Under the pieces are notes generated by a model, which searched no databases, had not been told where the DNA came from, and worked only from the letters and a program-made list of their open reading frames with translations. Of a stretch of DNA of 20,000 nt, positions 1 to 20,000 are shown piece by piece; the first letter of the stretch is position 1; each line of letters starts with the position of its first letter. Source of the DNA: an uncultured virus (IMG/VR IMGVR_UViG_3300012352_000177) (lineage: Duplodnaviria; Heunggongvirae; Uroviricota; Caudoviricetes; Crassvirales); IMG/VR virus record IMGVR_UViG_3300012352_000177; one strand, given 5' to 3'. The position numbers were made by a program, and so were the translations under genes.

Positions 1-402
1 AAAGAGGCGGCTAATATGTTGGGTTATTTCTACTATGGAACACCTTCACAGATTCAAGCAGCAACAAGTTACTTTAAGGGAGTAGATCCATCAATCGTAG
101 GCATTAATCGTGCTAATGATAGGATTATTATTGAGAGAAAGAATGCTGATGGAGAGACAAGCTATAAAAGTATCTATATGCAGCAAGGAAGTAATAGATT
201 ATCTCAAAAAGAATTTATTCAAGCTGCATCACCTGAATTAGCAAAGATAAATGACATCTTTACAGGACTTGCTCAAGGAAGTTATGCTGAAGGTAAACCT
301 TTAAGTATTTACCAAGATAACCAAGGAAAGGGTACAATAATTAAAAACAGAACCGTAACAGGTGATGAGAACACTAATAAAGTAAACGCAGCACAATATT
401 AA
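1..402 (+). CDS. 3' part of a phage hypothetical protein (probably virion-associated), truncated by the window edge
   Basis: Frame is open from base 1 (AAA GAG GCG GCT AAT ATG) to TAA at 400-402, so the true start is probably upstream. It lies 11 bp before the giant gene on the same strand. Confidence 0.7.
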   Translation, partial: KEAANMLGYFYYGTPSQIQAATSYFKGVDPSIVGINRANDRIIIERKNADGETSYKSIYMQQGSNRLSQKEFIQAASPELAKINDIFTGLAQGSYAEGKPLSIYQDNQGKGTIIKNRTVTGDENTNKVNAAQY

Positions 403-413
403 TTAATTGTAAT

Positions 414-3400
414 ATGAACGAAAAAGCAATTCAAGACGCATATAAACTATTCAAGCAATCGGGTTATACAAAGAGCATTAATGAATTCAGAGTGCTCATG
501 AGTTCTAATCAAAATGCTGTAAATGATGCATATAAATTATTTAAGCAATCGGGATATACAAAAAGCGTAGATGACTTTAAAGTGCTCATGGGTTCAGGAG
601 CTCAAGTAAAAAAAAAACCTACTTCAGAATTGGATTCCAAATCGGGAAAACTTACTTCGGTTTCTTCTACCAATCAGAAAAGTAACGGAGAGTATACTTT
701 CCCGGGACAAACGGGAGTTAAGTTCAGGAAAGAAAACAATCAGTGGTATAGGAAAGATCCAACTGCTGCTGACTACATTGTAATTAAGGAGCCTGCTAGA
801 GTTAAAAACCTAGAGAAAAACGCTTTACAAACTACATCAAATACTAAACCAAAGGGGCAAGTTGGTATGGAGCAAGGATATCTTAAAAAGGGATATCAAA
901 AGATTAACAACAAGTACTACGATGGTAAAGGTGAGATATTCACCAACTATCCCGGAAAGGAAGGAAAAGCTTATAGATTCAGTAATGGTCAATGGTTTGA
1001 ACAAAGCCAATATATTGACGCAAAGAATGTACTTGCTAATGGTGAAGATATGAGCGTTACTGTATTGAAGTCCCCTATCAAGGACCCAATGCGTATAAAC
1101 GCCCTAAACAAACAATTCAAGAAATGGGGTACTTCTGAGAATGGAGTATTATTAGGATTCCCGGGTAAAGAACAGAACGAATACCGAGTTGTAAATAATC
1201 AATGGCAGAGAAGATCTCCTGAGAATAAGACTTGGGTAAATGTTACAAACCAAAACTCTGTAACAGCACTTAACGACTACTTCAAGAAACAAGTTAAGTT
1301 TGAACCTGAAAAAGTAGATAATCTTAAGCAAGATAACATATATTCTAAAAACTTTGACACCAATATTAAATCAATTAATTCATCATTAATTGGTGGAGAA
1401 GAAGAGAATGCTGTAGAGGTTCTTAGAAAGAAATTTCCTGCAGCAAATGGATGGTTATTTGAAGAGACAGGTGCAGGAGATAGAATAATAATTACTGCCC
1501 CGAATGGTCAGAAAGAAACATTTACTCTTGACAATTGGACTTGGGATGATGATAAGAGAAATGCACAGCAAATGATTGGATGGATGCAGGCTAATAATTT
1601 GGCTCCATCTGAGAAAGAAACTTATGATAGATATAAGAAAGCTACAGTTGCTCAAGGAGAAGGAGCAAAAGAAGAAGTAGAGACAATAGTACTACCGGGT
1701 GGTGGTTCTTTAAATATACAGCAGCCTGTTCTTAATAAAATGTATTTGAAAAATGAAGAGGTTGCAAGGCAGGCAAGAAATGAATGGATGCCTATTAAAA
1801 GTCAAAAGGTTCAAGATATAAAGTCTCAATATTCTGCATATATATCTGATAAGGGTGCTTTAGATAAGCATACTCAAGAAAGAGCTCAGGCAGCTCTTGG
1901 CGCATTAGCAGAAGATAAAGAGACAATAAGACAAGTTAATGCATATCAAAATGATATCAAATATAATATTGAGTCATTTAATAAAAAACAAAAAGAAGCT
2001 GAGCTATACGTAACAAGCTTAAACTCAAAGTTTTTAAATGGAGAGATAACAAAAGAAGATTTTGATTCTCAGTTAGGATCTAAACAGAAAGAACTATTAG
2101 ATCAAGAACAGGAAATAAAGAATCAAATTAAGTCATCTGATAACTTAACTAGAACAGCTAATATGGCTGCAGCAGAGAATTATCTTGTTCAGGAAACAAA
2201 AGGTAGTCTTGGAGGTGGTTTAACACTTAGCTTTATAAAAGGAATGGTTTCGCCCTTGAGATTAATTGAGGGTGCAATGGGAATGGATACAAGTGCATCT
2301 GCATGGCATAAACAAGTTACTGATGCAATAGCTCCGATTTGGGATTATGAGACATCACTTGAATACCTTCGTTCTGAAGAAAGACCTGACCTATATAAAT
2401 CAGCGTTCTCAGTAGCTGAATCACTAGGGGCAATGGCTCCTTTAATTGCATCAGGTGGTGCTACTTTGCTTGGAGAAAGTGCTTTAGCTACAGGTACAAT
2501 GACTGCAGCTGCGTTCTATCCTATGTCTTATTATGAGATGAAGGATGAACTTGAGAATATTGATATGCCTGAGGAAGATAAGATTGCTTTATCATCCGTA
2601 TATGGATTGGTATCATCTGCATTTGAATCCATAGGTATGGAGTATGCAATGGGTAAGGTAAGTACTCCTATTCAAACAGCTATAAAGAGAAACATACTAA
2701 AGAATGTTGTAGGTAAAGAGATACCTAAAAATGCTTCAAAGGAATATATTGATGCTCTTGTAAAGAGTGAGACCAAGGCATACGTTGCAAATTTAGTTGC
2801 AAGCACTGCAGGATCAATGGCTGTTGAGGGCGGAACTGAAGCTCTTCAAAGTTTATCAGGTGCCGGTATGAAAGAAATATATGACCGGTATAAAGGGAAT
2901 AATGAGCTATTTAATAATGAAGGATTACAAGGTGTAATGAAAGAAGCCCTTTACGAAGGGTACCTTGGTGCATTAGGTGGTGGTATGACGCATAGCGTTT
3001 ACATAGCATCTGATGCGGTAAAACGTGGTAAAGCATTAAACAGCAAGGAGCTTGGAATGCTCATGATGGCTGCTAAGACAGATGGTATGAGTGAGACACT
3101 TATGACCAACTTAAAGTCAGATATGTTAAATGGTCGTATTACAAAGACAGAGGCTGAAGAGATTGCTAATAACTTTCAAATGGTTCGTGGCAACATGGAA
3201 CAGATGCCTGAGAACTTAACACCTGAAGCGCAGTCTGTATCATTGAGCCTAATGATGGAGCGCGACAGACTAGATAAACAAGTCGCAGGGAAAGACCCGA
3301 ATCTCGTTAAGCCGCAGACAACGCGTATTGCTGAGATAAATAATCGTTTACAACAAATATCAGAAGAAAATGCCGTTCAAGAGCAAGCAACAGGTGAAGT

Positions 3401-6400
3401 TCCTGTACAGTCAGAAACCGGAGTTAGCGAAGAAGTGGCGGGAGGAGTATCCCAACCAACCACTGAACAAGTTACCACAGAAGGTGAGCAAGCTAAAACA
3501 GAGGTCGCTAAACAAGAAGAAAAAGTAGCTCCAAGTACTGAAGCTGAGTTAGACTTCGAGGTTACACCTGAGATTGATCAAGAGGCTGTTAACCTTGAGA
3601 AGCTATTGGCTGATGAGGGTATTACTATTGAGACACCTGTTACTGAGGCTCCTATAACAGAAGAGACTGTTACTGAGGAAGCTCCTGTAGCAGAGGCTCC
3701 TTTAGCAGAGGCTCCTGTAGTAGAAGAGACTGTTACTGAAACGCCAAATGTAGAAGTAGGTGGTATTGTAAGAGGTTATGAAACCATATCAGGAGAAGAA
3801 GCTGTAGGTGACGTAAGATCAAAGCTACCTAATCAAAACAATGGTACAGTTGTAATAGAAGGTCAAGATGGAAATCAATATGCCGTTGCGTTCTCAAGAA
3901 AAGGATCAGACGGTAAAAATATCTTTGAGCAAGGAACAACAACTCAACGTCCGGGATACATATCAGCATCTGTTAAGATTGATGAGAATGCTACACCTGA
4001 GCAGATACAAGTCGCTCAACAGGAAGCTCAGAGAAATCTAGAGATGATTCTACCGGCCGTTGTAAACGGGTCGATAAACACACAAGCTGTGAACGAGATC
4101 ATGGCACAACAAGCTGTTGCCCAACCATCCGGAGAAACCGGACAGTTGCCGGTTGCTGAGACAGCTGTGGTTGAAGAAGCTCCTGTAACTGAGACAGCTC
4201 CTGTAATTGAAGCAGCTCCTGCTAAAAAGCCAAAAGCTCCTAAGAAGTTAACTAAGAAGGAAGTACTTCAGAAATATAATGATTATATCGACTCATTGAT
4301 TAAGGATGAGAAAGAGAGATCAGATAGAAGAATTGCTCAGCTTGCTAACCAAAGAAACTCAGCTACAGGTCAAAGACGTACTGAGTTAACTCAGGAGATG
4401 CAAGACTTAGAGTTTGCATTCAAAGCTAAGAAACGTGGCTTAGAGAGCAAGAAAGACGACAAGCAAGCTGCAATTGATTTCAATGAGCAAGGAAATATTA
4501 AGCCTGCTGACATATTATTCCAACTTGACTCTAGCCAAGAGTCAGCTGATAAAAAGAAAGAGCTACTAGAAACAGCTACCGCAATGATGGAAGAGGCTGA
4601 GAAGGAAGGATTCTCTGAGACAGCTTTTACAGCAGAACAACCTGAACCACAGGTTGATTTGATTACTATTGATATTAAAGAGAATACGGAGCTAGCAGAT
4701 AAGGTACAAAGAATGGGTCTTTCTGAGCTTATTGGAAAGAAAATTAACCTTGTAATGGCAGATCAACTAAAGGTTGACAAAGGTCTTATGGGTGGACCTT
4801 TCTTTCCTTTAATTAATAAGCTATTCGGAAAGGTTGCATGGGCATCTATTAATGACACAGCCGCCATAAAGATTATCAACGGAGCAATTAAGTCTGACTA
4901 TACCGTGGTATATAACATGAACCCGGAAGCTATTGACTCTAATGTAGCAGTGCTTGACTCATTTGAAAGAAAGATTCAAGAGCTACCTAAGAAAATGCAA
5001 CAGCAAGTATTCACTGAGATTACTGAGTACTTAAATGAGAAGAAGTTTGGGGAGAAGACAGAGGAGATACAAAAGATAGCATCTGAGTCAAAGAACCTAA
5101 ATGACTTATTGGCTAAGCTAAATGAGTTAGATGTAGATACCATTGCTGCGGTTGTTAAGAGTGTACTACCATCAAAGACTGTTAACGCAGGAACTAAGAT
5201 TGGTGCTACACTTCAGTCTCAAAATATTAGTATTGAGGACATCAGAGCAGAGAACATCGAACAGTTTGTAGCGGACCTTCCTGCCGGAGCTTTGACTATG
5301 GTATTGCAGGTAACTGACAAGAATGGTAAAAAGGTAACTAAGCAGACAGCAAGAGAGGCTCTTATGAGTAGAGAACAGCAAAAAGCTGAGGGTCTACCTA
5401 TACATAAAAACTATCCTGTATACATTAGAGGTAAGGCAGTTGGTATCTTAAAAGAGACCACTCCTTTTTGGAATGTATTTAAGGATGCAATTAACGAGAT
5501 AAACGTAAAAGTTGCAGGTGTTGTTAAGCACTCTACAGGGAGAAACATAACATCAAAAGAGGCTCTATCTAATGAGATGAGAAGCGCGTCAATGACTGCT
5601 TCACAGGCGAGAAAAGTTTCTGAGCCAACGGTTGATATGTATCAGAAGTTTGTAAGCGTATTGTCTCGATCTATTCCGGGAGTAAATGTTGTTACATCTC
5701 AGAAAGAGTTCAATGACCTACTAGACAACTTAAACACTCAAAAGCTATCTACTAAAAACCAAAAGGTATATGGTGCTGTGTACAAGGGTAAGATTTATTT
5801 GAATCCATCACTACAGAACTACAACACACCTATCCATGAGTTTGGACATATTTGGCTTAATGTAGCTAAGACAGCAAATAAAGATCTATACAATAAAGGT
5901 ATTGACCTTATTAAAGGGTCTGAATATGTTGATCAGATTAAAAACAATAAAGACTATCAGCGTGTAACAAACGAGATGGCTAAGAATGGTGCTACTCAAG
6001 AGGAGATTGACAACTACATCTATGAGGAGGCACTAGCTACTGCAATTGGTGACAAGGGTGAGTCATTTGTTAAAGCATCTCAAGCTCTAAAAGATTTTAA
6101 GAGTTGGTTAGATAAGCTATACTCATTTGTAAGAAAGCTAACGGGTATATCTAAGTACACGCCTGAGCAGTTACAAGACATATCACTTGATGAGTTCTTA
6201 CAGGCTGTATCTGTAGACTTATTATCCGGAGAGAAGCTATTTGATGTGACCGAGGGTAGTATGTCCGATGCGCTTCAGTTAATGTCCAAGAGCAATAACA
6301 TATCTAAAATTATTGATGCAGCTAGGAAGAACAACATATCTGACCAAGCCATAAAGTTGGTATTGGCAAGAAAAGGTTTTGCTGTTTCTGATATAAACGA

Positions 6401-9400
6401 TGCATTTGATACTGCTATTCAAGCTGAAGAGAATTTAGCTGAGACGCTTGAAGGATATTCTGAGTTAATGTCTAAGGTTGATGCCATGATTGCCCGTCAA
6501 CAAAAGAGAAATACAGAGCCATCTAAAATCTCTAAGAACGTGGATGCACTTGTAAGAAAATCTGATGTATATCAAAATGCTACAGACTTACAAAAGAAAG
6601 CAATTGAGGCTAATACAAAGGCTAAGACAGGTACTAGACAAACAGTTGCTCCATCATACGGTAGAATTTTAGGTGCTGTTGGAGATATTGAAAACTTAAC
6701 CTCAAAAGAAAAAATAGCTATTGCTAATAGAATAGCCAAGTTAGCTAAAGATGCATCTGCTAACTTAGCAGATGAGATTAAAGACTTAGTTAAGTCAGGT
6801 AAAATTTCAGCCAAACAAATGGTAAGTGTATTTAACAGATTGAAATCTGTTAACTTACTAAATGAGGTATCAGTGATGAAATTCATTGACTACATGGCTA
6901 AGGTCTTTAATAACGCTGAGTATGCTCAACAAGTAAGTACAGCTAAATCATTACAGTCAAAGGTTAAGAATAACGCTAAGACTAAACTTGGTATTGCTAA
7001 CGACTTGATTTCTGAGATCCTTATAATGGCTTCTATTAACCCATCATTGATCCCATCTAAGGTGTTTAATACGTACTTGGAGACTATGAATATGCTTGGG
7101 CAAAGAACGGCTGTTCTAAAGCTTGAGGAGAGGGGAGAGCTTACGCAAAAGGTTGCTGACATTTTAGACGCAGTTAACGAGGAGTTATCTGTAGCTAGTG
7201 AAATGGCTGAACAGTTTGACAACTACGAGCAAAAAGAATTAAATAAGGAGGGTAAAGTAGACTTTGCTAAGACGTTGAAAAAAATGATAGACGATGGCAC
7301 CATCACGGAGGCTCAAGCTGACATAATGCGTAAGTACAAAGCAGAGATAGTTGATAGTGAGTCTACAAAGAAGACTGAGGAAGAGCTTGCTGAAGAGAAG
7401 AAGACTTTGCTTGGAGTTCTTAAAAAAGACGTTATAACTGATGAGGCTATTAAAGATTTACCATCAAGACTAGAGAGAGAATTAGCTAACTCAATTAAAT
7501 CATTACTTAAGACTGATGCTGTTAACAGATTGAATAACACTACATTAAAGAACTTATTAAAGTTAGTTGACAATATCAATAATGGCTTTGTTCCTCACTA
7601 CGCAGAGAAAATGAAGGAGAGATTGAATGCTATTAATAGCTCATCTATATTATCATCTTCTGTTAAAAAAGCGAATCCACTTAGAGTAAGCACTGTATTA
7701 AGTAAGATTAAAGCATTCTTTACTGAGAAGTATACAAAAAGAGATTATGTTCTAGATATGGAACGTAGTATTTCTTTAGCAAATATTGATCAGGTTTTTG
7801 GTGATTTTAAGACAGAGAATATATCAGAGTCAATGTTTGAACCATCTAGAAAAGCACAAGCTGCATTTGAAACAATGTTTAAAAAGGCTCAAGATAAGTT
7901 AGAGAAAGCAAGAAGAGATGTGTTTATTTCTTTAGGTAAGAATTCAAATAAAACAATTATGTCTGATTTTAAGATAATGACATATTTGTTGCAACTTGAA
8001 AGTAATTCAAATCCTAACAGTAAGCAAGTAAACAATGCTGTTGACTTTATCAATGCAACAATAGCTCAAATTAATCGAAAAAAATCAGCTAACTATACAA
8101 ACAAAGATGCTAAGTTCTTAAATGAGATATTAGATAAATATACTAATCAAAGATCTTTAGAGAATAAGTATGGTAAGCCGTATGGAAAATTTACTTCAGA
8201 AGAAAAGGCTAGTGTTGAGTTGGATATTAATAAGATCTATAACTCATTTAACTCAGCAGAAAAAGCTTCTATTAAAACTATTCAGGAAGTAAATGACTCT
8301 ATGACTGAGAAGGCTGTATACACAGCAGGAATCATTCGAGGTGATAAGATTAATCCAATTGCTGATTATGTTCCTCATATTGTAACAAAAGACATTTTAC
8401 CGGGTGAAGAGATTTCAGGAGCAAGTGATGTAAATAACTTTAATAACTCAAGAAAGCCATCTACTAAGGCTAGTAACTTAGTAGAGCGTACGGGTACTGT
8501 CACAGCAATTAGCTTTGATCCATATAAATCTACATCTAATGCAACAAAGAATGTATTATTAGATTTCTATATGACTGAGCCTATCAGGACGGCAAGGATG
8601 ACAATCAATGAGACGCGTAAGAGACTAGAGGATGATGGTATTACTGAGCAACAAAATTTATTTTTAAATGCTATTGAAAATGCATTTGAGGAAGCTACAA
8701 AGAATGTATTACAAACTAACTTCCAACAAGACGAGATACTAAGTAAAGCGGCTAGTATTATTACAAAAGCCGGATATAGATCTTTGCTAGGAACAAGTAC
8801 AGTTCGTACTGCATCAGAGCTATTATCTAACATGAGTGCTGTTGCATTGATGGAAGGAAAAGCATTTCTAAAAGGAGTATCCAAAGAATTAAGGAAATAC
8901 ACCAATCCGGAAGAAGGACTTGAAATCATGATAAACAGTGGTTCAAATGCACCTCAACGAGTATTTGGAGGAAGTACTCAAGGTGGTATGTTTATTGATC
9001 CTGCTATTGCAAATAGCGCAGTTGGTATGAAAGATTCAGCTGCAAAAACAAAGCTAGAGAATACAATGCAAATGATCTATAATAGATCACTTAAGCACCC
9101 TGTTAATTGGATTGAGACTACATCAGATGTAATGATGTCAGCTCCTGATATTATTGTAACAAGACCAACATGGTTTGGTGCATATGCTAATGAGTTTAAG
9201 AAGGTAGCAGGAAAGGATGTAGACTTTGATAAGATTAAGGCTAACGATGAGGCGTACATGAATGAGAATAAGGATGCCATTGAAGCTGCAACAAAGAAAG
9301 CAGATAAGGCTGTATTCAAGTTGAGTGCTACGAATAATCCTTACATGGGTATATTGAGAAATAATATCTCACCTGACTCAAAAGGTATAGCTAAGACTAT

Positions 9401-10422: not shown

Positions 10423-10444
10423 AGTAGTGCCGAAAGGCACTACT
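10423..10444. terminator. Hairpin at the convergent junction, probable bidirectional terminator
   Basis: Perfect 9-bp stem AGTAGTGCC-GAAA-GGCACTACT immediately after the giant gene stop, overlapping the TAG of the opposing gene. U-tracts are weak. Confidence 0.7.
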
Positions 10445-10853
10445 TAAACCTTATGTACTTAAACTCTTTTTGTTTGTCGTAGTAAGCCATTAGCTCATTA
10501 TCGTTAGTGGCTCCTTCTCTGCTAGGTCTACCACCCAACCGGATGGTTCCGTATATAGAGAATATCTTACCATAGATGATACCATCTTCGCATGACCATA
10601 TAACAACGGGGTTTAGTCTTTTATCAGATAACTTGTGTAGTTTACGTATGGCAATAGGGAGAGGATACGCGTCTCTCATGGTACGTATCCTTCCCTTTAC
10701 CTCGACATAAGCAATTAGTTTCTTGTCCTTATCAAAGACCTTATAGTCTACATCGTGTGGACCTAACTTCTCGTATGATCCTCCGAATATTGCAACAAAT
10801 GTTTCTATGGCTTTTTTCTCTCTTCGTCTGTCTTCTTCTGATTCAAAAGTCAT
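10440..10853 (-). CDS. PD-(D/E)xK-fold nuclease-like protein
   Basis: DVDY...YVEVKGR motif arrangement (D...ExK). Confidence 0.65.
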   Translation of the reverse strand: MTFESEEDRRREKKAIETFVAIFGGSYEKLGPHDVDYKVFDKDKKLIAYVEVKGRIRTMRDAYPLPIAIRKLHKLSDKRLNPVVIWSCEDGIIYGKIFSIYGTIRLGGRPSREGATNDNELMAYYDKQKEFKYIRFK

Positions 10854-11035: not shown

Positions 11036-11578
11036 TTATCTCATTACAAGACTATTAAAAAAATTATTCAACTTAGATTCCACAAAATCCTCTTGTCCGA
11101 CAGGTGTCCTATCGTTGATCAACCAAAGTATTTTTTGTAGTCTCTCGTACTTTAGTTTGTCACTTAAGTACTTTTGATTCTCCAAAGATAGCTTTTCTAT
11201 TTGTTTATGCAACACCATTGAGTTATTTATTATCTCAATCTCTTGACTTTCTATCAGCTTAGGTTGTATTTCTATAAACCTTTCTTTCAGGTATATATAC
11301 GTTTCGCGGAACTCTGTGTCACTACTAAATAACCAATCAAAGTTTTTCATGTAGTGAATAATAGTTGAATGATCTTTGCCAATTCTTCTACCAATAGACT
11401 TAAATGAATAGTTGTGTTCACGTGCAATCTTTGCATATATAATACGGGCATCGACAAGCTTTCTTTTCCTTGAGTCCCCAAATATATCTATATCTAGTTC
11501 ACCCTCTACTACGATGCGAATTGCATCTAATTCATCCTTTGGTTTCCTCACCTCTAAATACTTCTGTTCTGATTCCAT
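11036..11578 (-). CDS. DnaA C-terminal (domain IV)-like HTH DNA-binding protein
   Basis: SRKRKLVDARIIY...SFKSIGRRIGKDHSTIIHY matches the DnaA domain IV pattern (R..R...AR...Y...S...IG...G.DH(S/T)T.IH). No AAA+ domain is present. Confidence 0.8.
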   Translation of the reverse strand: MESEQKYLEVRKPKDELDAIRIVVEGELDIDIFGDSRKRKLVDARIIYAKIAREHNYSFKSIGRRIGKDHSTIIHYMKNFDWLFSSDTEFRETYIYLKERFIEIQPKLIESQEIEIINNSMVLHKQIEKLSLENQKYLSDKLKYERLQKILWLINDRTPVGQEDFVESKLNNFFNSLVMR

Positions 11579-12031: not shown

Positions 12032-12309
12032 AGCTTTTCGATTTCTTGTTTAACTTCTTCCCAATATTCAAGCGACAACCCTAAATCTATTTCCCGGTGG
12101 CTATAACATTGGTTGATTAATTCTTGAACTGCAATCAATGCACATTGTTTGGCTGTATATTCATCAATATGACCTTGATAACAATATAGCATTTTATCTA
12201 CTAATTCTTTTGCTTTTTCTTTTGGTGTCATAAATCCATTTATTTTTTTAGGTGTTGCATCTAATATTTTAGATAGCTCATTAATTACTTCTTTACTTGT
12301 TGGCTTCAT
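12028..12309 (-). CDS. Hypothetical phage protein (TPKEKAKEL...AKQCALIAV...YWEEVKQEIEKL type)
   Basis: ATGA overlaps at both ends. An alternative start is possible at 12231 (MTPKEKA). Resembles 18989..19165. Confidence 0.75.
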   Translation of the reverse strand: MKPTSKEVINELSKILDATPKKINGFMTPKEKAKELVDKMLYCYQGHIDEYTAKQCALIAVQELINQCYSHREIDLGLSLEYWEEVKQEIEKL

Positions 12310-12566
12310 AATTCGTCAAATAGTTTTTGGTGTCTTTCAATTTTTTCTTTAAGCATCTCACAGCGTTGCTCTGAAACTTTGATAATATCTTCAATAAGGA
12401 TGCGTACATATCCTACATCAGAAAACTCAACTGATATAGTTCCATCTTCTCTACATGACTTTCGTTTTAACTTTTCTATTTGCTCTTTTTCAAGATCAAG
12501 TGCCTTCCAATTACTTGAGATGCAATCTTGCAAATCATTTGCTCTAAATAATAATTCCTTTGTCAT
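12306..12566 (-). CDS. Hypothetical coiled-coil protein (86 aa)
   Basis: ATGA overlaps with the helicase stop and with the next gene start. Confidence 0.75.
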   Translation of the reverse strand: MTKELLFRANDLQDCISSNWKALDLEKEQIEKLKRKSCREDGTISVEFSDVGYVRILIEDIIKVSEQRCEMLKEKIERHQKLFDEL

Positions 12567-13993
12567 AATAATTTTTTAAAATGTGTAACTGTAAAATCTT
12601 TCTTTGCCGATACGGCTTTGTATATCTCCTTCTCGATGCCTCCCTTGGAGAACAACCAATACACTTTATTGTACTTGCGTTCCTTAGTGGTCATCCTATC
12701 GCGTGACTGCCAATAGCTTGTCGCACTGAAGTCGATGTTGTAGTATACCAAGTAGTCAGCGTTCTTCAACGATATTCCCTCACGTCCGGATACAATCTGC
12801 AGAGCTATCACCTGATAGTCCTCGTTGTCAAACTTATCAAGCTCAGTAGTAAGCTTATCACCAAACACTTGCTTGAGTGCATTAAGCTCTTCCTTGAACT
12901 TGTAGAAGACTCCAATCTTATATTCTGAAAACTTCCATTTTATGCACTCTGCCTTGGTCAGGTCAAGTATCATAGAGTTTCCACTCTCGAACTTAATGGT
13001 ACCACTGCATAGTTGGTGTACCTTCTGCATGAGCTTCACCGGTGTGTCAGCTAAGATTAGCTCTTCCTTCCCCTCGATCAGCAGATCTTTTTTAAGCTTC
13101 TTGATCATTGCGTAGGTCGAAGGCTTCAGGCTAACGTACAAAATCTCTTCTTCTACTTCACTATCAAAGCCTGCTTCTTTCTGCGTGTAGCTTATCATGT
13201 AAGGCTTCATCGCTTCAAGGATGGAAGGCTTTCCCTCAGAGTAGTCTCTGATGCGTAGGCTGTTGATCATTCGCTCCTTTACGTTCACGTGTTCGTTTGC
13301 AAACTTGTAGAACGTTGGGCATCCTCTGAACGGGTTACCGGGAATTGCGCTTACTTGGTGGTACAGCTGTGAGTATGACTCGGGGGTTGGTGTACCCGAA
13401 AGTAAGATGACGTATGGTTTATTAACTTTGATGAACTCAGCCACAATCTTAGCTCGGTTACTTGCCTTTGGAAAGGCACCCATACCATGAGCCTCATCTA
13501 GGATGATTACATCGTACCCGTAATTACCAATGGTGTGTAAGCTCTCGTAGTTGATCACGGTTATCGCATAGCTTGGGTTAAGAAGGTCGTAGTCTCTTTG
13601 AATAGTTGAGATAGCTTTCTTCTTAGTAACAAATAAAACCTGATTAGGCTTCAATAACTCGCATATGCCGAGACTTGTGAGTGTCTTCCCTGTCCTTACC
13701 TCCATTGCTAAATAAACGAAGCGAGAGACGTTTAAAATGTCATATGCTTTTGCGATGATTTCTTTTTGATAATCTCTAAACTCTATCTTCATACTCTTAT
13801 AATGTTCTATGCTATTCTTAATTTGTTTTACCTTGTCTTCCATGTTACGATACATAGGCACCCTCATGGTTACAACATTCTTTCCTCTTCCGATCTTTAC
13901 TTCCTTGATCTTATTTATCGCCTTGAGCATTGCCTCAAGTTGACTAATCATCATCTTAGGTGTGTATCCGGATGGACCCTGTATGATCTCCAT
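12563..13993 (-). CDS. Superfamily 2 (SNF2-like/DExH) helicase
   Basis: Q-motif FRDYQ, Walker A MEVRTGKT, Walker B IILDEAH, motif III LSGTP, motif V SGREGISL, motif VI QSRDR. The helicase core starts near the internal ATG at 13792. Confidence 0.9.
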   Translation of the reverse strand: MEIIQGPSGYTPKMMISQLEAMLKAINKIKEVKIGRGKNVVTMRVPMYRNMEDKVKQIKNSIEHYKSMKIEFRDYQKEIIAKAYDILNVSRFVYLAMEVRTGKTLTSLGICELLKPNQVLFVTKKKAISTIQRDYDLLNPSYAITVINYESLHTIGNYGYDVIILDEAHGMGAFPKASNRAKIVAEFIKVNKPYVILLSGTPTPESYSQLYHQVSAIPGNPFRGCPTFYKFANEHVNVKERMINSLRIRDYSEGKPSILEAMKPYMISYTQKEAGFDSEVEEEILYVSLKPSTYAMIKKLKKDLLIEGKEELILADTPVKLMQKVHQLCSGTIKFESGNSMILDLTKAECIKWKFSEYKIGVFYKFKEELNALKQVFGDKLTTELDKFDNEDYQVIALQIVSGREGISLKNADYLVYYNIDFSATSYWQSRDRMTTKERKYNKVYWLFSKGGIEKEIYKAVSAKKDFTVTHFKKLL

Positions 13994-14516: not shown

Positions 14517-14761
14517 TTTATCTCGTAGTTAACTTTAACTTCTTGTCTAGCTTTTTGTTCAATAAACTTGACATCTTGCTTAAGCTTTTCAATGTAGCAC
14601 GTGGCATCCATCAGTTCTTCCTGTAGGTGATTTAACCAATCGGTTAAACTCAGGTCATCACGATCGAGCGTTGTCCCATACTTATTGATACCTACCTGAC
14701 TACGCTCGTAGTACTTTGCCATTACCTTCAATACGATTGGGTCTTCTACTTTCTGTTTCAT
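14513..14761 (-). CDS. Phage protein, possible all-alpha NTP pyrophosphohydrolase (MazG-like) fold
   Basis: G..KYG.TL....W..HLQEELMDA..Y contains an EExxD acidic motif; function is inferred. Confidence 0.55.
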   Translation of the reverse strand: MKQKVEDPIVLKVMAKYYERSQVGINKYGTTLDRDDLSLTDWLNHLQEELMDATCYIEKLKQDVKFIEQKARQEVKVNYEIK

Positions 14762-14994
14762 TCTTCTAAATTTAAGTTATAGTCTTCTAATATTCTTCTT
14801 AATTCTTCTCTAAGCATTTCAGATGCTTCAATTTCTAGTGAAGTAGCTTGTCTACCTTTAAAATGTTGATTTCTAATAACACTTCTAAGTTGTTGATCTA
14901 AATTCCACATAGCAATCCTCCATTTGTAGCCATCTAAAGCCTCACGAAGTTCTTCTCTTTCTTCGTTTCCGTCAAACTCAATTGTTACTTTCAT
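14758..14994 (-). CDS. Hypothetical phage protein (78 aa)
   Basis: Overlapping coupling with both neighbours. Confidence 0.75.
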   Translation of the reverse strand: MKVTIEFDGNEEREELREALDGYKWRIAMWNLDQQLRSVIRNQHFKGRQATSLEIEASEMLREELRRILEDYNLNLEE

Positions 14995-15361
14995 CTTCTC
15001 TATATTTAATTTCTTTTTTAATCAAGTCAAGGTGCCACTCAGCTCCACCATATTCAAGTACTGCTTGTAGGTAGTCATCGTCCATATCGCATATCGCGAT
15101 GTACGTTAGCGGTTGCTTGCCATCTACACCCCGGCTGCCTCTTGTTGCATACTTTCTCACAATCATAAAATCATCATCTGCATAGACGTACTTAGGTTCA
15201 ATCTTATCCATGTCCTTAGCACCATATCTCTCATACTCATTACCTCCGTCAACCATGGCGCCATTAGGACATCCACAAGTAACATAGTCATGCCGGCTAC
15301 GGCTTACAATCGTTTCGCCACATTCAAGGCATTTGATTGCGTTATAAACTATCTGTCTCAT
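14978..15361 (-). CDS. Cys/His-rich putative Zn-binding phage protein
   Basis: NAIKCLECGETIVSRSRHDYVTCGC...VDGG. The start was moved to the ATG at 15361 (MRQIVYN) to reduce overlap with the upstream gene. Confidence 0.75.
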   Translation of the reverse strand: MRQIVYNAIKCLECGETIVSRSRHDYVTCGCPNGAMVDGGNEYERYGAKDMDKIEPKYVYADDDFMIVRKYATRGSRGVDGKQPLTYIAICDMDDDYLQAVLEYGGAEWHLDLIKKEIKYREDESNN

Positions 15362-15578
15362 CTTGATATTTTTCTCTAAGTATTTCAAACTCTTTTGTTA
15401 GCTTTTCCATTGTAATATGTTCTGCGGCTCTTACTAATGCGCCTCCAAACTTAATGGATTCAAACATCTCATCCTCATATTTTATCTTGGCTTCTTGCTT
15501 CAATGCATACCAAGCTAACTTATCCTTTGGCATCTCCCACAGCTGTCGGTATAACCACTCTATTGAATTTTCTTTCAT
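15342..15578 (-). CDS. Hypothetical phage protein (78 aa)
   Basis: ATGA overlap with the upstream gene; SIEWL...EAK pattern. Confidence 0.7.
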   Translation of the reverse strand: MKENSIEWLYRQLWEMPKDKLAWYALKQEAKIKYEDEMFESIKFGGALVRAAEHITMEKLTKEFEILREKYQDETDSL

Positions 15579-15829
15579 ATCATATTGTTTTTAGTAAAGT
15601 ACTCTGCCACCTGACCGATGTCATCGAACTTAATGTTATCAAATTTCTTTTCCTCAAAGTTATACTGAACAAGGCTTTTGTTTTTAACAGCAGTCTCAAA
15701 CGTACATATCTTACAGACCCTGTTTCTTCCAAGGTCTGTCTTCAATGTGTAGTGTCTCCTGTTCTCAGTGAAGCTGTCCAACGTAAGCGTTCGCCTACAG
15801 CTGAAGCATTGTTTCTTTGTCTGTGTCAT
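15575..15829 (-). CDS. Small CxxC...CxxC zinc-finger protein
   Basis: KQCFSC...F...RVCKIC. Confidence 0.7.
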   Translation of the reverse strand: MTQTKKQCFSCRRTLTLDSFTENRRHYTLKTDLGRNRVCKICTFETAVKNKSLVQYNFEEKKFDNIKFDDIGQVAEYFTKNNMI

Positions 15830-18227
15830 CCTGTTCAGGTTTACGATTAATAACTATCCATCTTCCCTTGTCCTCACGTCCCTCAGTAGGCATAACTCCG
15901 TGCTTGTACATTGCGTAAGACACTAGCCACTTATAGAACTTCGTTCGACTGATCGTCATCTTAGCCTTCGGTCCGTAGTCCGGGTACTCGTTGATGAAGT
16001 CAAAGTATAGATCGTTCTTGAAGTACTTGATGCTAGGGTATAACCTTTGGTCATCCTTGTTAGCATCGTCAATCAATCCAACCCACTCTATGAAGTCATG
16101 ACAGGTCTCAGCTGACAGCTGACGTATCTTAAGGTTCACGAACTTAGACTTAACTAGTCCGGTGTTCAAGTATCCCTGAAGACAGGCTACCATGTAGTTG
16201 TCAAACTCACACCAATCCTCATCGTTCCAATCTGCAAAGAAGTGACGACCAAACTCATCCTGTGGAGTGAAGTGCATATTGTAGTGCTGATGCAGTTCCA
16301 ACTCCCACTTACGTCTTGCGAATGAGTTACCTGCCCCCTTGATTGCGTAGTTGGTAGTGATGGCTACCTTAGGTGACTTACTGAATGGTATCTTAATTGC
16401 ATCCTTATTCTTCTTCTCAAGCGTTAACCCCTCTGTGATGACAGAGAACAACCGCTCGAAGTCAAAGTATCGTTTAACGTCATCAAAGCATAGTATCTGA
16501 GTGTCTGCTGATACCAACTGATATGGGAAGGACTTCTCAAATGCGAATGCCTTACCATCAATCACCACCAACTTCTTCATCTGACTAAGCGCGTTCATGA
16601 ACAGACCCTTACCGGTACCACCCTCAGGGTTGTCACTGATTACCTCATCGTTTAGGATGACAGCCGGACAGAACGATAGGTTCTTGTACCCATGCATAAG
16701 GAACCCAATGGTACTCTCCATGGTAGCAACTCTGTACTCATCGTTACCACAGATGTTGGAGATGAACTGAACGTAGTCGCACTTGTCTGTGATGTCACAG
16801 ATGTTGAAGCTCCTGTCTATCACGTGGTCTTTCCATACGTACCCACCTAAGTCCAAGTAGTCAATCGTCTTTATCTCTCCCTTGGATATCTGAACAGCGC
16901 AGTTCCTGTAGTACAGGTACGCTGTGTCCTTGGTGTCCTCAATGAAGTAGATGTCAATGGTTGCCAACATGGAAAGGAACTCTTCCTTAAAGAATCGAGT
17001 GTTGTCAGCGAAGTAGTTGTACACGTTGATGTCGTCCAAGTTAAGCAGGTAGTCAAGGATAAAGTCCTTTATCTCCTTCTCCGATGTGTGGTCGATCAAG
17101 TTGTTGGTTACCTTAACAAACACGTAGTTCTTTCCACCCTCAGGGCAGTACTTGTAGAACCCATTGTCTTCCAAGAACTGCTTCAATAAGATGTGTACTA
17201 CCTTGATGATTCCCTTGTCGTTCTTTGACCAAAATGTAGAATTTGCATTCTCCTCCTCTACCTTGTTAAGAACAGAATCGATTGTCTCCGTATCCAAATG
17301 GGAATCTTGTAGCTGAATACGTATCTCTTTTTTTGATACACCACGTCTTAGCTTAGCCTTGATCTGATTGACTCTCTCCTCATCCTCGTAGTACTTGGTA
17401 CCGAAGTTAGATGTGTTCTTGTAAGCTGAGTCAATTGTCATTGCAATCTCAGACAAAGTAAAGTCCTGAGTAGCAAACTGATTAAGCACGTAAGATGCAA
17501 GGCTCTTGTTGATACCGAAGTCATTGAACGCCATCGCTAGGATGTACGCGTTATGATTACGTTGACCCTCAACCATTGGGTGCTTCTTCTCCCACCACTT
17601 GAGTAGTATCTCAACTACCTTGTTCTCATCGGTGATTGGAATGGTAGCCGTGTCTCTGAACTTTGTCACCTCTTGGTACTCAGGCTCTTCGATGATGTCC
17701 CATAGGGATGAGTTCTCGTTCACGTAGATTAACGGGTCGTATGACTCGTAGCATACGCGACTGATGTTCTTTGATGTCTTGTCGAAGTACTGCGAGTTGA
17801 AGTACTTCTCTAGGCTGTTGAAGTAGTTTGTATGGTTCTCCGGATCTTGTGGGACCTTTATCAATACCTTTAGTCCGTTACCTGATGGTGAGATGAACAC
17901 TGAGTACACGTACTTGTTCTTTGATATGTTCTCCTTGTCCTGAAGTAGCTCCTTTTGTTTTTGGTATCCATCGAAGTCTAAGCAGATGAGTCCGCTGTGT
18001 TCTACTAACGCGCTGTCTGCTCTCTTGGTAAACGTACCGCTGAAGCAGATAGCAGGTAGTAATTTCTTTAGGTCGTTACGTATCTCCTTCTTCTTCTCTG
18101 TACGAATCTTCTTAACCAAGTCCTTTGAGGTACCCTCCTTAATCCTATCGAGGATATTACCTACCTCTCGGTAGAAGGGAGTATCTGTCTCCTTGATGTT
18201 TTGGAATATTGTTATTGTAAATGTCAT
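15795..18227 (-). CDS. Primase-helicase: BT4734/VirE_N-like primase domain, PriCT-like domain and SF3 (D5-like) helicase
   Basis: K..LPAICFSG...HSGLICLDFD...FISPSGNGLK...D....NISRVCYESYDP; GQRN (PriCT-like); Walker A GGTGKG, Walker B ILCFDD, motif C ITTN. Confidence 0.9.
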   Translation of the reverse strand: MTFTITIFQNIKETDTPFYREVGNILDRIKEGTSKDLVKKIRTEKKKEIRNDLKKLLPAICFSGTFTKRADSALVEHSGLICLDFDGYQKQKELLQDKENISKNKYVYSVFISPSGNGLKVLIKVPQDPENHTNYFNSLEKYFNSQYFDKTSKNISRVCYESYDPLIYVNENSSLWDIIEEPEYQEVTKFRDTATIPITDENKVVEILLKWWEKKHPMVEGQRNHNAYILAMAFNDFGINKSLASYVLNQFATQDFTLSEIAMTIDSAYKNTSNFGTKYYEDEERVNQIKAKLRRGVSKKEIRIQLQDSHLDTETIDSVLNKVEEENANSTFWSKNDKGIIKVVHILLKQFLEDNGFYKYCPEGGKNYVFVKVTNNLIDHTSEKEIKDFILDYLLNLDDINVYNYFADNTRFFKEEFLSMLATIDIYFIEDTKDTAYLYYRNCAVQISKGEIKTIDYLDLGGYVWKDHVIDRSFNICDITDKCDYVQFISNICGNDEYRVATMESTIGFLMHGYKNLSFCPAVILNDEVISDNPEGGTGKGLFMNALSQMKKLVVIDGKAFAFEKSFPYQLVSADTQILCFDDVKRYFDFERLFSVITEGLTLEKKNKDAIKIPFSKSPKVAITTNYAIKGAGNSFARRKWELELHQHYNMHFTPQDEFGRHFFADWNDEDWCEFDNYMVACLQGYLNTGLVKSKFVNLKIRQLSAETCHDFIEWVGLIDDANKDDQRLYPSIKYFKNDLYFDFINEYPDYGPKAKMTISRTKFYKWLVSYAMYKHGVMPTEGREDKGRWIVINRKPEQDDTDKETMLQL

Positions 18228-18870: not shown

Positions 18871-18987
18871 TTATTCTGATTTAATTGTTAATAACTTTTC
18901 TGCTAGTTCTAATACATATAATAAAAATGTATCTTTCGTATTAACTAATGCTACATTAATTACTACAATGCTGTTTATATCTCTCAT
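18871..18987 (-). CDS. Small hypothetical protein (38 aa) MRDINSIVV...LLTIKSE
   Basis: Hand translation; fills the gap between neighbours with 1-nt spacers and ends inside the junction repeat. Confidence 0.5.
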   Translation of the reverse strand: MRDINSIVVINVALVNTKDTFLLYVLELAEKLLTIKSE

Positions 18988-18988
18988 A

Positions 18989-19165: not shown

Positions 19166-19166
19166 C

Positions 19167-19511: not shown

Positions 19512-19686
19512 TTTCTTCAAGATCACTAAATACAGTCTTAACTTCTGCACACCATCCATCATACTCTAATTCACCATCTTTCTCATAAAAGAAATGTTCT
19601 GTGTTGTTAGCATCTGTGATAATGTAGCCATTGTCTACGCTTGTTGGCTTAATGCTTATTGGCATTTTTAATTTTAATTCACTCAT
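19492..19686 (-). CDS. Hypothetical protein (64 aa) MSELKLKMP...
   Basis: Start reassigned to the ATG in the junction repeat (19686). The longer ORF-track start overlaps the upstream gene. Confidence 0.65.
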   Translation of the reverse strand: MSELKLKMPISIKPTSVDNGYIITDANNTEHFFYEKDGELEYDGWCAEVKTVFSDLEENEVQDN

Positions 19687-19720
19687 CTTATTCTGATTTA
19701 AAGGTTTCATTGTTAGTCTA

Positions 19721-19900
19721 CTAATTATCTCTTTCATTTTTATTAGTTTCATTAGATATTGAATCATTTTCATTAATTGCTTCCAAATTATCTAACTGAT
19801 TCCATAAAATTGCCAATTCTGCTTTACGAATTGATAACTCTCTTTCCTTGTCTCTGATGAATAATTTAATATCATCAATTGCTTTTTCTATCTTGTTCAT
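19721..19900 (-). CDS. Hypothetical coiled-coil protein (59 aa) MNKIEKAIDDIKLFIRDKERE...
   Basis: Hand translation; ATGA overlap with the upstream gene; TAG at 19721-19723. Confidence 0.65.
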   Translation of the reverse strand: MNKIEKAIDDIKLFIRDKERELSIRKAELAILWNQLDNLEAINENDSISNETNKNERDN

Positions 19901-20000
19901 TTTTCTTGTTGTTTAAAGGTTAATAATTCTTCTGCTATCATTCTTGTTGTCTTGCCTTGTATGTACTTCATAGCACTTGATTCGGCAACTTGACAAGCAA
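19897..20000 (-). CDS. 3' end of a hypothetical protein (...MIAEELLTFKQQEK*), truncated by the window edge
   Basis: Open frame from the window edge to a TGA that overlaps the next ATG. Confidence 0.55.
   Translation of the reverse strand, partial: ACQVAESSAMKYIQGKTTRMIAEELLTFKQQEK

What the first reader, a model, noticed from the sequence alone, without database searches (positions are those of the whole stretch)
1..20000. Apparent total absence of CCAG/CTGG on both strands
Seen (manual scan, may miss a few): I found no CCAG or CTGG in 20 kb, while CCA followed by A/C/T and CTG followed by A/C/T are very common. Dozens would be expected from base composition. Codon choice visibly avoids the word: Pro-Gly is CCG GGN or CCC GGA (702, 951, 1161, 1695), some Pro-Glu pairs are CCG GAA, and Ala/Ser/Thr-Gly avoid NCT GGN. 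CCGG and CCTG are plentiful, so this goes beyond Dcm/EcoRII CCWGG avoidance. Inference: strong selection by a host defence or DNA-modification system targeting a non-palindromic 4-mer, possibly uncharacterised. The AT-rich accessory genes show it too, suggesting a gene pool sharing one host lineage.
Basis: partly seen in the sequence, partly recalled or inferred. Interest (0 to 1): 0.72.

Follow-up and report, generated by a model that had tools for sequence, protein, structure and literature searches.

The report
Phage genome purged of CCAG/CTGG
This stretch of a lake-water phage contains not one copy of the four-letter word CCAG on either strand because its codons have been silently rewritten, most likely to dodge a host DNA-cutting enzyme that reads that word and that nobody has yet isolated.

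Summary
The window has 0 CCAG/CTGG. Expected numbers are 83 (Markov), 98±10 (dinucleotide shuffles) and 71±6 (synonymous-codon shuffles). All 12 one-letter neighbours of the word are at or above expectation.

The window is part of a ~64-kb podophage-like genome. Its cultured relatives all infect Flavobacteriaceae. A complete 64,114-bp relative has 0 sites against 258 expected.

In 81 family sequences only 9 of 136 tetramer classes are ever purged. CCAG is the commonest (52 of 81). Seven are classical palindromic restriction sites: GATC, CTAG, CATG, GGCC, CGCG, GCGC and CCGG. The ninth is CCCG.

Selection is still acting. Of 1914 substitutions between the window and its relative, none creates the word, against 33±5 expected.

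Best reading (0.75): restriction-site avoidance against a host restriction enzyme that reads CCAG. CCAG-specific methyltransferases are published (H. pylori; lactococcal phage phi15). I know of no characterised CCAG endonuclease, and I did not identify the host or its enzyme.

This scan had already noted CCAG purges in other uncultured phages. I class it as a new member of a known kind, of moderate interest.

The parts
1..20000 (.). Stretch with no CCAG and no CTGG on either strand
   Evidence: 0 observed. Expected 98.2±9.9, 82.7 by Markov and 71.2±6.4 by synonymous shuffle of the coding part. All 12 single-substitution neighbours are at or above expectation.
414..10421 (+). Giant ORF (3335 aa), probably a virion protein, fully recoded to avoid the word
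   Evidence: ORF list. Only phrog_32588 matches, at residues 2421-3277; there is no Pfam domain above cut-off and no PDB sequence match. Region 1-10421 has 0 against 46.0 expected. All 7 Pro-Gly pairs are CCG/CCC+GGN. The homologous giant gene is annotated 'structural protein' in Flavobacterium phage elemoF.
702..707 (+). Example of forced codon choice: Pro-Gly written CCG GGA (CCA GGN and CCT GGN would both contain the word)
   Evidence: The same holds at 951, 1161 and 1695.
4055..4058 (.). The only GGCC in the window (a second, weaker purge)
   Evidence: GGCC 1 against 13.4 expected; position.
10440..10853 (-). Small PD-(D/E)XK nuclease (PF24579), a core gene of the family
   Evidence: Pfam E 1.3e-6. 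Its cluster is present in 41 CCAG-free, 8 low and 10 normal loci, so it does not track the purge.
11036..11578 (-). DnaA-C-like helix-turn-helix protein (replication module)
   Evidence: PF08299, E 5.3e-11.
12563..13993 (-). SNF2/ResIII-type helicase; used to show synonymous replacement of the word
   Evidence: Pfam and PHROG matches.
14978..15388 (-). Accessory DUF7695 gene in a variable cassette, also free of the word
   Evidence: PF24749. Contigs of 3 of 4 runs laid replace 14747-15357 by 11 letters (tables 5 and 5c). Pooled accessory ORFs have 0 against 7.7.
15795..18227 (-). BT4734-type primase/helicase, the marker used to collect 409 relatives
   Evidence: PF08800 and PF19263; phrog_28855 full length.

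Best explanation
The window belongs to a virulent-looking, roughly 64-kb freshwater phage with a P22-like portal. Its cultured relatives infect Flavobacteriaceae. Its DNA has been cleared of every CCAG/CTGG by synonymous codon changes, and selection keeps new sites from arising.

The most likely agent is a restriction endonuclease of the host population that recognises the asymmetric tetranucleotide CCAG and can act on a site in either orientation. A phage with no sites cannot be cut, so it needs no methylase of its own. This is passive restriction-site avoidance.

Shown: the absence, its specificity, its synonymous nature, its persistence through divergence, its family-wide spread, and its co-occurrence with purges of classical restriction palindromes.

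Inferred: that the agent is a host restriction enzyme, its class (an orthodox Type II enzyme with an asymmetric site is the best guess), and the host group.
For: 1. Size and specificity. 0 against 83-98 expected. All 12 one-letter neighbours are at or above expectation, and the replacement words CCGG, CCCG and CCAT are enriched.

2. The removal is silent. 0 against 71.2±6.4 under synonymous shuffling, with the context-dependent codon choices. At 476 CCAG sites in the primase and helicase genes of CCAG-normal relatives, the window encodes the same amino-acid pair without the word at 305. These site-by-relative pairs are not independent.

3. Selection is current.
- 1519 of 60,000 possible single changes would create the word.
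- Of the 1914 real substitutions between the window and relative G001 over 13,125 aligned bases, none creates it. Random placement with the same substitution spectrum gives 33.0±5.3, minimum 19 of 300.

4. It covers whole genomes. G001 (64,114 bp, rated 100% complete) has 0 against 258. G004 (63,424 bp) has 0 against 298.

5. Family pattern. Among 81 sequences (80 IMG/VR loci plus the window), only 9 of 136 tetramer classes are ever purged (observed/expected below 0.05, expected at least 8):
- CCAG 52 of 81, GATC 50 of 81, CTAG 35 of 81, CATG 33 of 81
- GGCC 30 of 70, CGCG 20 of 44, GCGC 19 of 64, CCGG 5 of 53, CCCG 2 of 79.
Seven of the nine are 4-bp palindromes that I recall as classical Type II sites. 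Sets differ between close relatives, as expected from changing host restriction repertoires.

6. Cultured relatives show the same kind of total purge for palindromes. Flavobacterium phage elemoF has CATG 0 against 124 and also no CCGG, CGCG or GGCC. Maribacter phage Panino has GATC 0 against 178 and no CCGG or CGCG.

7. It is not a host-phylum composition trait. 39 Bacteroidota genome samples of 11-20 kb have CCAG observed/expected with median 0.96 and minimum 0.58.

8. Relaxation looks neutral. L030 is a close sister of L034, which is free of six words. L030 carries low, evenly spread numbers of all six. G003 has 38 evenly spread sites in 32 kb.

9. No methylase was found in G001. None is among the 47 of its 73 ORFs scanned with Pfam. 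tblastn with the family's four methylases found no match there.

10. CCAG is a real methylation specificity.
- Knock-out of gene hp0944 abolishes CCAG methylation in H. pylori A45, and the motif was also seen in T. phaeum (passages of PMC10689673).
- The Sporosarcina P32a motif is marked as not unique against REBASE (passages of PMC5930826).
- Lactococcal phage phi15 methylates CC(6mA)G with an orphan methylase that the authors interpret as protection against restriction (passages of PMC4190342).

11. Surveys find that complete site elimination concerns mainly orthodox Type II sites in non-temperate dsDNA phages (passages of PMC6286503).
Against: - No host and no CCAG restriction gene were found. 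Contigs of the family sit in MAGs labelled Parvibaculum, Aliivibrio (2) and Cytophagales, which looks like mis-binning.
- A DNA search of 401 Bacteroidota genomes gave only chance-level or low-complexity matches and no CRISPR array.
- No homologue of the phi15 CCAG methylase at E<=1e-10 was found in those 401 genomes, nor at E<=0.01 in any family locus. That search had no positive control.
- I know of no characterised endonuclease that cuts at CCAG (recalled; REBASE not consulted).
- The cultured Flavobacteriaceae phages compared here are not CCAG-depleted (150 against 186; 222 against 286). The pressure is therefore not general to that host family.
- In the lineage L043-L045 the residual sites are almost all CCAGW (7 of 8, 11 of 11, 13 of 13; the three loci share sites). 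There, at least, the pressure may be on 5-mers.
Confidence: 0.75

Rival explanations
1. Several enzymes with longer sites (for example CCWGG, CCAGC/GCTGG, ACTGG/CCAGT and CCAGA/TCTGG) together cover every CCAGN, so no single 4-mer-specific enzyme exists.
For: Residual sites in L043, L044 and L045 are CCAGA or CCAGT in 7 of 8, 11 of 11 and 13 of 13 cases. CCAGG and CCAGC therefore stay purged while CCAGW returns (the three loci are near-identical and share sites). Longer specificities that contain the word exist: TCC(m6A)GG, a Type III methylase in Geobacter (passages of PMC3526280). A Neisseria Mod paper holds 'CCm6AG...' seven times (search listing only).
Against: 52 of 81 family sequences lose all four CCAGN together. 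In the other partly relaxed genomes the base after CCAG shows no consistent rule: G003 has G 11, C 11, T 14, A 2; L030 has G 10, C 5, A 4, T 4. One 4-mer specificity is more economical than four 5-mer ones, and 4-mer CCAG methylation is published (PMC10689673, PMC4190342).
Confidence: 0.08
2. The phage, or a co-infecting element, encodes a methylase-less nuclease that cuts CCAG in host or rival DNA. The phage is immune because it has no sites.
For: The window and its relatives carry small PD-(D/E)XK nucleases (PF24579; DUF3799).
Against: The PF24579 gene is a core gene found in CCAG-free, low and normal loci alike (41, 8 and 10). No gene cluster is present in all CCAG-free loci and absent from normal ones; the best is 26 of 52 free against 0 of 20 normal. 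Relatives purge up to seven or more different words in changing sets, which would need many phage nucleases in a 64-kb genome. None was seen in the 47 of 73 ORFs of G001 that were scanned.
Confidence: 0.07
3. The word is avoided because it serves another sequence-reading defence, such as a CRISPR PAM, or some other non-restriction-modification system.
For: Nothing direct. The agent is unidentified, so this cannot be excluded.
Against: Removing about 260 sites per genome down to zero, and keeping them out, needs strong selection on each single site. That fits cleavage at every site better than a PAM, which matters only next to an acquired spacer (inference). The purge also travels with classical restriction palindromes.
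Confidence: 0.05
4. No selection for defence: a mutational, repair or DNA-structural bias, or an assembly artefact.
For: None found.
Against: Close relatives with the same replication genes have normal counts (G005: 261 sites in 42 kb; 20 of 81 sequences normal). Bacteroidota genomes are near expectation. The one-letter neighbours are not depleted. The purge is seen in dozens of independently assembled contigs and in a GenBank record (MW202828.1: 4 against 241).
Confidence: 0.02

Closest known systems
Restriction-site avoidance in non-temperate dsDNA phages (survey: Rusinov et al. 2018, PMC6286503, passages read)
   Same: Complete or near-complete elimination of short recognition words by silent changes. 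It is strongest in virulent dsDNA phages and is attributed to orthodox Type II enzymes. In this family it co-occurs with purges of GATC, CATG, CTAG, GGCC, GCGC, CGCG and CCGG.
   Different: The leading word here is an asymmetric 4-mer, and no cutting enzyme for it is known to me. The survey's cases are overwhelmingly palindromes of known enzymes in known hosts. Here the host is unknown.
Orphan CC(6mA)G methyltransferase M.Phi15I (and CY(6mA)G M.Phi93II and M.Phi145II) of lactococcal 936-type phages (Murphy et al. 2014, PMC4190342, passages read)
   Same: A phage countermeasure aimed at exactly the word CCAG, interpreted by the authors as protection from host restriction.
   Different: Those phages keep the sites and methylate them (35 sites in a 10-kb piece of phi15). 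This phage removes the sites, and no methylase was found. No homologue of M.Phi15I is present in any family locus.
CCAG-specific methylation in bacteria: H. pylori A45 gene hp0944, T. phaeum (PMC10689673, passages); Sporosarcina sp. P32a (PMC5930826, passages)
   Same: Shows that proteins reading the bare 4-mer CCAG exist in unrelated bacteria. H. pylori A45 methylates CCAG alongside CATG, GATC, GCGC and GGCC, much the same set that this phage family purges.
   Different: Only methylation was shown. The passages I read report no cognate endonuclease activity. The organisms are unrelated to the likely hosts.
Halovirus Hardycor1 tetramer avoidance (Dyall-Smith et al. 2021, PMC7911831, passages and Table 2 read)
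   Same: A virus with several absent palindromic tetramers that also strongly avoids CCAG (odds ratio 0.11).
   Different: An archaeal virus with GC 67.8%. CCAG is reduced, not absent, and is a minor item there. Here it is absolute and is the commonest purge of a large family.
Orientation-biased avoidance of Type III sites (mentioned in PMC6286503 passages as 'previously known specific examples'; the T7/EcoP15I case is recalled, not checked)
   Same: An asymmetric recognition word under selection in a phage.
   Different: There the sites stay but face one way. Here both orientations are gone, and the partly relaxed relative G003 has 16 sites one way and 22 the other.

Membership tests
Restriction-site avoidance (passive anti-restriction) in phages | A short word is far rarer than composition-aware and codon-aware expectations | tested here: met
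   0 against 98.2±9.9, 82.7 and 71.2±6.4. 0 against 258 in a complete 64-kb relative.
Restriction-site avoidance (passive anti-restriction) in phages | Removal is by silent changes that leave proteins intact | tested here: met
   Context-dependent codon choice. The same amino-acid pair is kept at 305 of 476 homologous CCAG sites of normal relatives.
Restriction-site avoidance (passive anti-restriction) in phages | The word is the recognition site of a restriction enzyme present in the host | not testable with these tools
   Host not identified. CCAG methyltransferases exist in other organisms (PMC10689673, PMC4190342, PMC5930826). No CCAG endonuclease is known to me (recalled).
Restriction-site avoidance (passive anti-restriction) in phages | Selection is maintained: new sites are kept out as lineages diverge | tested here: met
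   0 of 1914 substitutions between the window and G001 create the word, against 33.0±5.3 under the null.
Restriction-site avoidance (passive anti-restriction) in phages | The phage has no protecting methylase for the avoided word | tested here: inconclusive
   No DNA methylase among the 12 window ORFs scanned or the 47 of 73 ORFs of G001 scanned. No tblastn match in G001 or the window to the family's four methylases. Small ORFs were not all scanned.
Dcm/EcoRII-type CCWGG avoidance | Depletion is confined to CCAGG/CCTGG | tested here: not met
   CCAG followed by any base is absent (0 of about 83 expected, of which roughly a fifth would be CCWGG by base composition). CCTG is 110 against 93.8 and CCGG 36 against 15.5.
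Type III-style strand-biased avoidance | Sites persist but in one orientation only | tested here: not met
   Both orientations are absent in the window. The partly relaxed relative G003 has 16 and 22.
Methylase-less phage nuclease with a site-free genome | A phage nuclease gene whose presence tracks the purge | tested here: not met
   The PF24579 nuclease occurs in free, low and normal loci. No cluster separates free from normal loci.

The most novel reading that the evidence does not exclude
The agent behind the CCAG purge is not an orthodox restriction-modification enzyme. It is a still-undescribed kind of sequence-reading defence, or a weapon of rival mobile elements, that recognises a bare asymmetric 4-mer in either orientation. 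It is widespread in freshwater bacteria and is the single most pervasive sequence-specific pressure on this phage family, ahead of GATC (52 against 50 of 81 sequences).
Probability: 0.12. Interest if true: 0.8.

Novelty: new member of a known kind. Interest (0 to 1): 0.5.

Why it matters
A phage genome that has lost every copy of a word is a negative print of what its hosts can cut. In a family of at least 409 uncultured relatives, CCAG is purged more often than any classical restriction palindrome in the 81 sequences examined. Close relatives of the window, or shared parts of it, occur in lake-water and freshwater metagenomes of 18 studies (four runs laid). Yet no enzyme that cuts at CCAG is known to me.

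The finding therefore predicts a common, strongly acting CCAG-specific nuclease in freshwater bacteria, probably Bacteroidota. It also gives a direct way to look for it: host methylomes with CCAG modification, and plating of phages with added sites. A four-base asymmetric cutter would also be a useful reagent.

The family also offers a natural experiment in how fast such purges are gained, lost and traded against phage methylases.

Tried and rejected
- Whole genome of the window: none is held.
- Counting the 4-mer in whole records with the genome search: the pattern is too short for that tool. I fetched the contigs instead and counted them in scripts.
- Near-identical named phages: none.
- Host by binning: family contigs lie in MAGs labelled Parvibaculum, Aliivibrio and Cytophagales. 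One of these MAGs holds four such contigs, which I read as mis-binning rather than as a host signal.
- Host by DNA or CRISPR match: 401 Bacteroidota genomes searched with 9.6 kb of the window. The only matches were the mis-binned contig, one 325-bp 65% primase-like stretch, and short chance matches. The best short match is a lysine/glutamate-rich low-complexity stretch with no repeats around it.
- Homologues of the phi15 CCAG methylase: none at E<=1e-10 in the 401 genomes (no positive control) and none at E<=0.01 in any locus held.
- CCAG depletion in Bacteroidota genomes as a host marker: 39 samples, median observed/expected 0.96. Four lie between 0.58 and 0.70 and none is strongly depleted. 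This is useful only as a control.
- Polarity of the 38 sites of G003: 23 of 30 aligned sites differ from G001 by one base. Only 4 of 11 sites aligned to both relatives show the same word in G001 and the window, so this does not settle gain against retention.
- Population variants from sequencing runs: read laying printed only 40 of about 1,100 differences, too few to test whether variants avoid creating the word.
- C5-methylase as the explanation of the CCAG-normal clade: it is present in only 6 of that clade's 10 loci. Its match to solved structures covers only the catalytic part of M.HhaI and M.HaeIII and says nothing about its target.
- Literature: no paper holds CCAG, CTGG, phage and avoidance together. 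Searches with methyltransferase, methylome, REBASE and SMRT gave the papers cited and nothing on a CCAG endonuclease.
Full report
**1. The observation**

The window holds no CCAG and no CTGG.
- The DNA search finds 0 matches on both strands. 200 dinucleotide-preserving shuffles give 98.2±9.9.
- My own tetramer table gives 0 observed against 83.7 from base composition and 82.7 from a second-order Markov model.
- Among the 136 strand-symmetrised tetramer classes this is the most extreme. GGCC follows with 1 against 13.4.
- All 12 words that differ from CCAG by one letter are at or above expectation. Several are enriched (CCGG 36 against 15.5, CCCG 34 against 22.1, CCAT 176 against 121.6), as expected if they are the replacement spellings.
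- Because CCAG followed by any base is missing, the effect is not CCWGG avoidance.

**2. It is silent recoding**

About 91% of the window is coding: 18,249 bases in 16 ORFs. Shuffling synonymous codons within each gene 500 times gives 71.2±6.4 sites, minimum 53, against 0 observed. Codon choice depends on the neighbouring codon:
- CCA is 53 of 117 Pro codons before a codon that does not start with G, and 0 of 60 before one that does.
- CTG is 20 of 329 against 0 of 153.
- No codon before Trp ends in C (0 of 44).
- After C-ending codons, Gln is always CAA (22 against 0).
- NCT never precedes Gly (0 of 325). NCC never precedes AGN (0 of 276).

All 7 Pro-Gly pairs of the giant ORF do so.

At 476 CCAG sites in the primase and helicase genes of CCAG-normal relatives, the window encodes the same amino-acid pair without the word at 305. 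These are site-by-relative pairs and are not independent.

Both halves of the window are clean (0 against 46.0 and 0 against 31.7). So are the AT-rich rare or singleton ORFs taken together (3,114 bases, 0 against 7.7, Poisson P about 4e-4). The non-coding 1,883 bases would hold only about 5 sites.

**3. What the DNA is**

The window carries these genes:
- a 3335-aa ORF with no known domain;
- a small PD-(D/E)XK nuclease;
- a DnaA-C-like HTH protein;
- an SNF2 helicase;
- a BT4734-type primase/helicase.

It has no near-identical named phage. The primase finds 409 relatives in IMG/VR, of which 80 loci were kept, and one GenBank genome at 76.5% (MW202828.1).

The closest complete relative is G001 (64,114 bp, rated 100% complete). 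It has a P22-like portal, a crAss-muzzle-like C-terminal domain, GroEL and GroES, a Sak annealing protein, homing endonucleases and an intein. No DNA methylase was seen among the 47 of its 73 ORFs scanned.

Its portal matches 87 phage records, 85 of them over at least 80% of its length. Every record with a named host infects Flavobacteriaceae: Flavobacterium 68, Cellulophaga 15, Tenacibaculum 2, Maribacter 1. I therefore infer, but have not shown, a Bacteroidota host.

Words of the window occur at shares of 0.20-0.43 in 20 runs of 18 studies, mostly labelled lake-water or freshwater metagenome. Four of these runs were laid and cover most of the window with contigs at 85-99% likeness.

**4. Whole genomes and the family**

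Whole contigs:
- G001 has 0 CCAG/CTGG against 258 expected.
- G004 (63,424 bp) has 0 against 298. It also has no GATC (178 expected), GGCC, GCGC or CGCG, only 2 CATG (193 expected), and lacks several 6-bp palindromes.
- G005 (42 kb) is normal, with 261 sites.
- G003, 94% identical to the window in primase protein, has 38 evenly spread sites in 32 kb.

Over 81 sequences, 52 are CCAG-free (observed/expected below 0.05), 9 are low and 20 are normal.

Only 9 of 136 tetramer classes are ever purged:

| Word | Sequences purged |
|---|---|
| CCAG | 52 of 81 |
| GATC | 50 of 81 |
| CTAG | 35 of 81 |
| CATG | 33 of 81 |
| GGCC | 30 of 70 |
| CGCG | 20 of 44 |
| GCGC | 19 of 64 |
| CCGG | 5 of 53 |
| CCCG | 2 of 79 |

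Seven of these are 4-bp palindromes that I recall as textbook Type II sites. The company CCAG keeps is therefore the strongest argument for what it is.

On a FastTree tree of 78 primases (three sequences with a primase match under 700 aa were left out), the three states need at least 10 changes. The normal state is found in a basal clade (8 of 10 rows), in one nested clade of 10, and in the single locus L048.

Cultured relatives show the same style of purge for palindromes but not for CCAG:
- elemoF: CATG 0 against 124; no CCGG, CGCG or GGCC; CCAG 150 against 186.
- Panino: GATC 0 against 178; no CCGG or CGCG; CCAG 222 against 286.

**5. Selection is ongoing**

- 1519 of the 60,000 possible single-base changes in the window would create the word.
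- The window and G001 differ by 1914 substitutions over 13,125 aligned bases. None creates the word in either genome.
- The same substitution spectrum placed at random gives 33.0±5.3, minimum 19 of 300.
- For G003 the figure is 12 against 31.8, a partial relaxation.
- L030 is a close sister of L034, which lacks six words. L030 carries low, evenly spread counts of all six. This looks like release from the whole restriction repertoire followed by drift.

**6. Controls**

39 samples of 11-20 kb from 39 Bacteroidota genomes have CCAG observed/expected with median 0.96 and range 0.58-1.23. The purge is therefore not inherited host composition. Its presence in dozens of separately assembled contigs and in a GenBank record (4 against 241 in 50 kb of MW202828.1) excludes an assembly artefact.

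**7. Trade-off with methylation (partly followed)**

- A 303-aa C5-cytosine methylase (PF00145, E 4e-43) occurs only in 6 loci, all in the nested CCAG-normal clade. The clade's other four loci lack it, so it cannot be the whole reason for the missing purge.
- N6/N4 and MT-A70 methylases occur in L026, L035, L037 and L047. L035 and L037 keep CATG and CTAG, which their nearest relatives purge.
- A 120-125-aa protein (phrog_13596, no Pfam match) occurs only in L013-L016 and L048, all CCAG-normal and in two separate parts of the tree. That amounts to two events at most, so it is only a lead.

**8. Mechanism**

The best reading is passive restriction-site avoidance against a host enzyme that reads CCAG. 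The enzyme must act on a site in either orientation, because both are removed. In G003 the returning sites face both ways (16 and 22), which does not fit the one-orientation escape known for Type III systems.

By analogy with the survey of Rusinov et al. (PMC6286503, passages), complete elimination concerns orthodox Type II enzymes almost exclusively. I therefore guess an orthodox Type II enzyme with an asymmetric site. This is inference.

CCAG is a genuine protein specificity:
- Knock-out of hp0944 removes CCAG methylation in H. pylori A45. That strain also methylates CATG, GATC, GCGC and GGCC.
- T. phaeum shows the motif (PMC10689673, passages).
- Sporosarcina P32a has it, marked as not unique against REBASE (PMC5930826, passages).
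- Lactococcal phage phi15 carries an orphan methylase assigned to CC(6mA)G, seen by its authors as anti-restriction (PMC4190342, passages). This is the opposite tactic aimed at the same word.
- Halovirus Hardycor1 lists CCAG at odds 0.11 (PMC7911831, Table 2).

**9. Rivals**

- Several 5-mer enzymes that jointly cover CCAGN (0.08). This is supported only by the CCAGW-only residual sites of one lineage.
- A methylase-less phage nuclease (0.07). No gene tracks the purge, and the many changing purges would need many nucleases.
- A PAM or another defence (0.05).
- Bias or artefact (0.02), contradicted by the controls.

**10. What was not achieved**

The host and the enzyme remain unknown. REBASE could not be consulted, so 'no known CCAG endonuclease' rests on my recall and on five literature searches that found none.

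**11. Verdict**

The phenomenon is a known kind (restriction-site avoidance), and the word is already known as a methylation target. This scan has also noted CCAG purges in other uncultured phages (e1-5976095, e1-5957446, e1-5661785, e1-6265909, e1-5651139; unchecked notes).

What this case adds:
- a large family in which CCAG is the commonest purge;
- proof of ongoing selection;
- a clear, testable prediction of a common CCAG-cutting enzyme in freshwater hosts.

Interest 0.5.

Noticed in passing
window 414-10421 (+): A 3335-aa ORF with no Pfam domain above cut-off and no PDB sequence match. Only phrog_32588 (function unknown) matches its C-terminal quarter. Homologous giant genes close the structural block in relatives: 3227 aa in G001, annotated 'structural protein' in elemoF, and annotated 'reticulocyte binding/rhoptry protein' in MW202828.1 (a label I doubt).
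   Followed up: partly
window 4055; whole window: A second, weaker purge. GGCC occurs once against 13.4 expected. In the close relative L018, GGCC and GATC are nearly absent from the first ~10 kb of the locus and commoner in the rest, which suggests mosaic histories.
   Followed up: partly
L056, L063, L071, L073, L074, L078 (e.g. L073:7568-8479): A 303-aa C5-cytosine DNA methylase is found only in 6 loci of the clade that shows almost no word avoidance. Four clade members lack it. This may be methylation used in place of avoidance.
   Followed up: partly
L048:14602-14964; L013-L016 (e.g. L013:11018-11395): A 120-125-aa protein (phrog_13596, no Pfam match) sits just after the SNF2 helicase gene in L048. 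Its motifs look to me like a PD-(D/E)XK nuclease. It occurs only in five CCAG-normal loci from two separate parts of the primase tree.
   Followed up: partly
L023 (22.4 kb locus): CTAG and GGCC are absent from about the first 10-16 kb and normal in the last ~6 kb. GATC is absent throughout. Purges can be regional, probably through recombination between phages with different histories.
   Followed up: no
window 14747-15357 and 12306-12562: Contigs from public lake and freshwater runs replace 14747-15357 (the DUF7695 gene cassette) by 11 letters in 3 of 4 runs. They skip 12306-12562 in 2 of 4 runs. These small genes are therefore variable cassettes.
   Followed up: no
L081:7635-10964 (G001): A 1109-aa protein just upstream of the portal gene carries a Hint/LAGLIDADG intein-type insertion (possibly the large terminase, by position; not tested). 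GIY-YIG/NUMOD3 homing endonuclease genes lie nearby.
   Followed up: no
L096-L099; genomes G006-G008: Contigs of this phage family are binned into MAGs labelled Parvibaculum, Aliivibrio (four contigs in one MAG) and Cytophagales. This looks like composition-based mis-binning and warns against reading hosts from MAG membership.
   Followed up: partly
L013, L014, L098: A second asymmetric tetramer, CCCG/CGGG, is fully absent in a few relatives (0 against 9, 10 and 15 expected).
   Followed up: no
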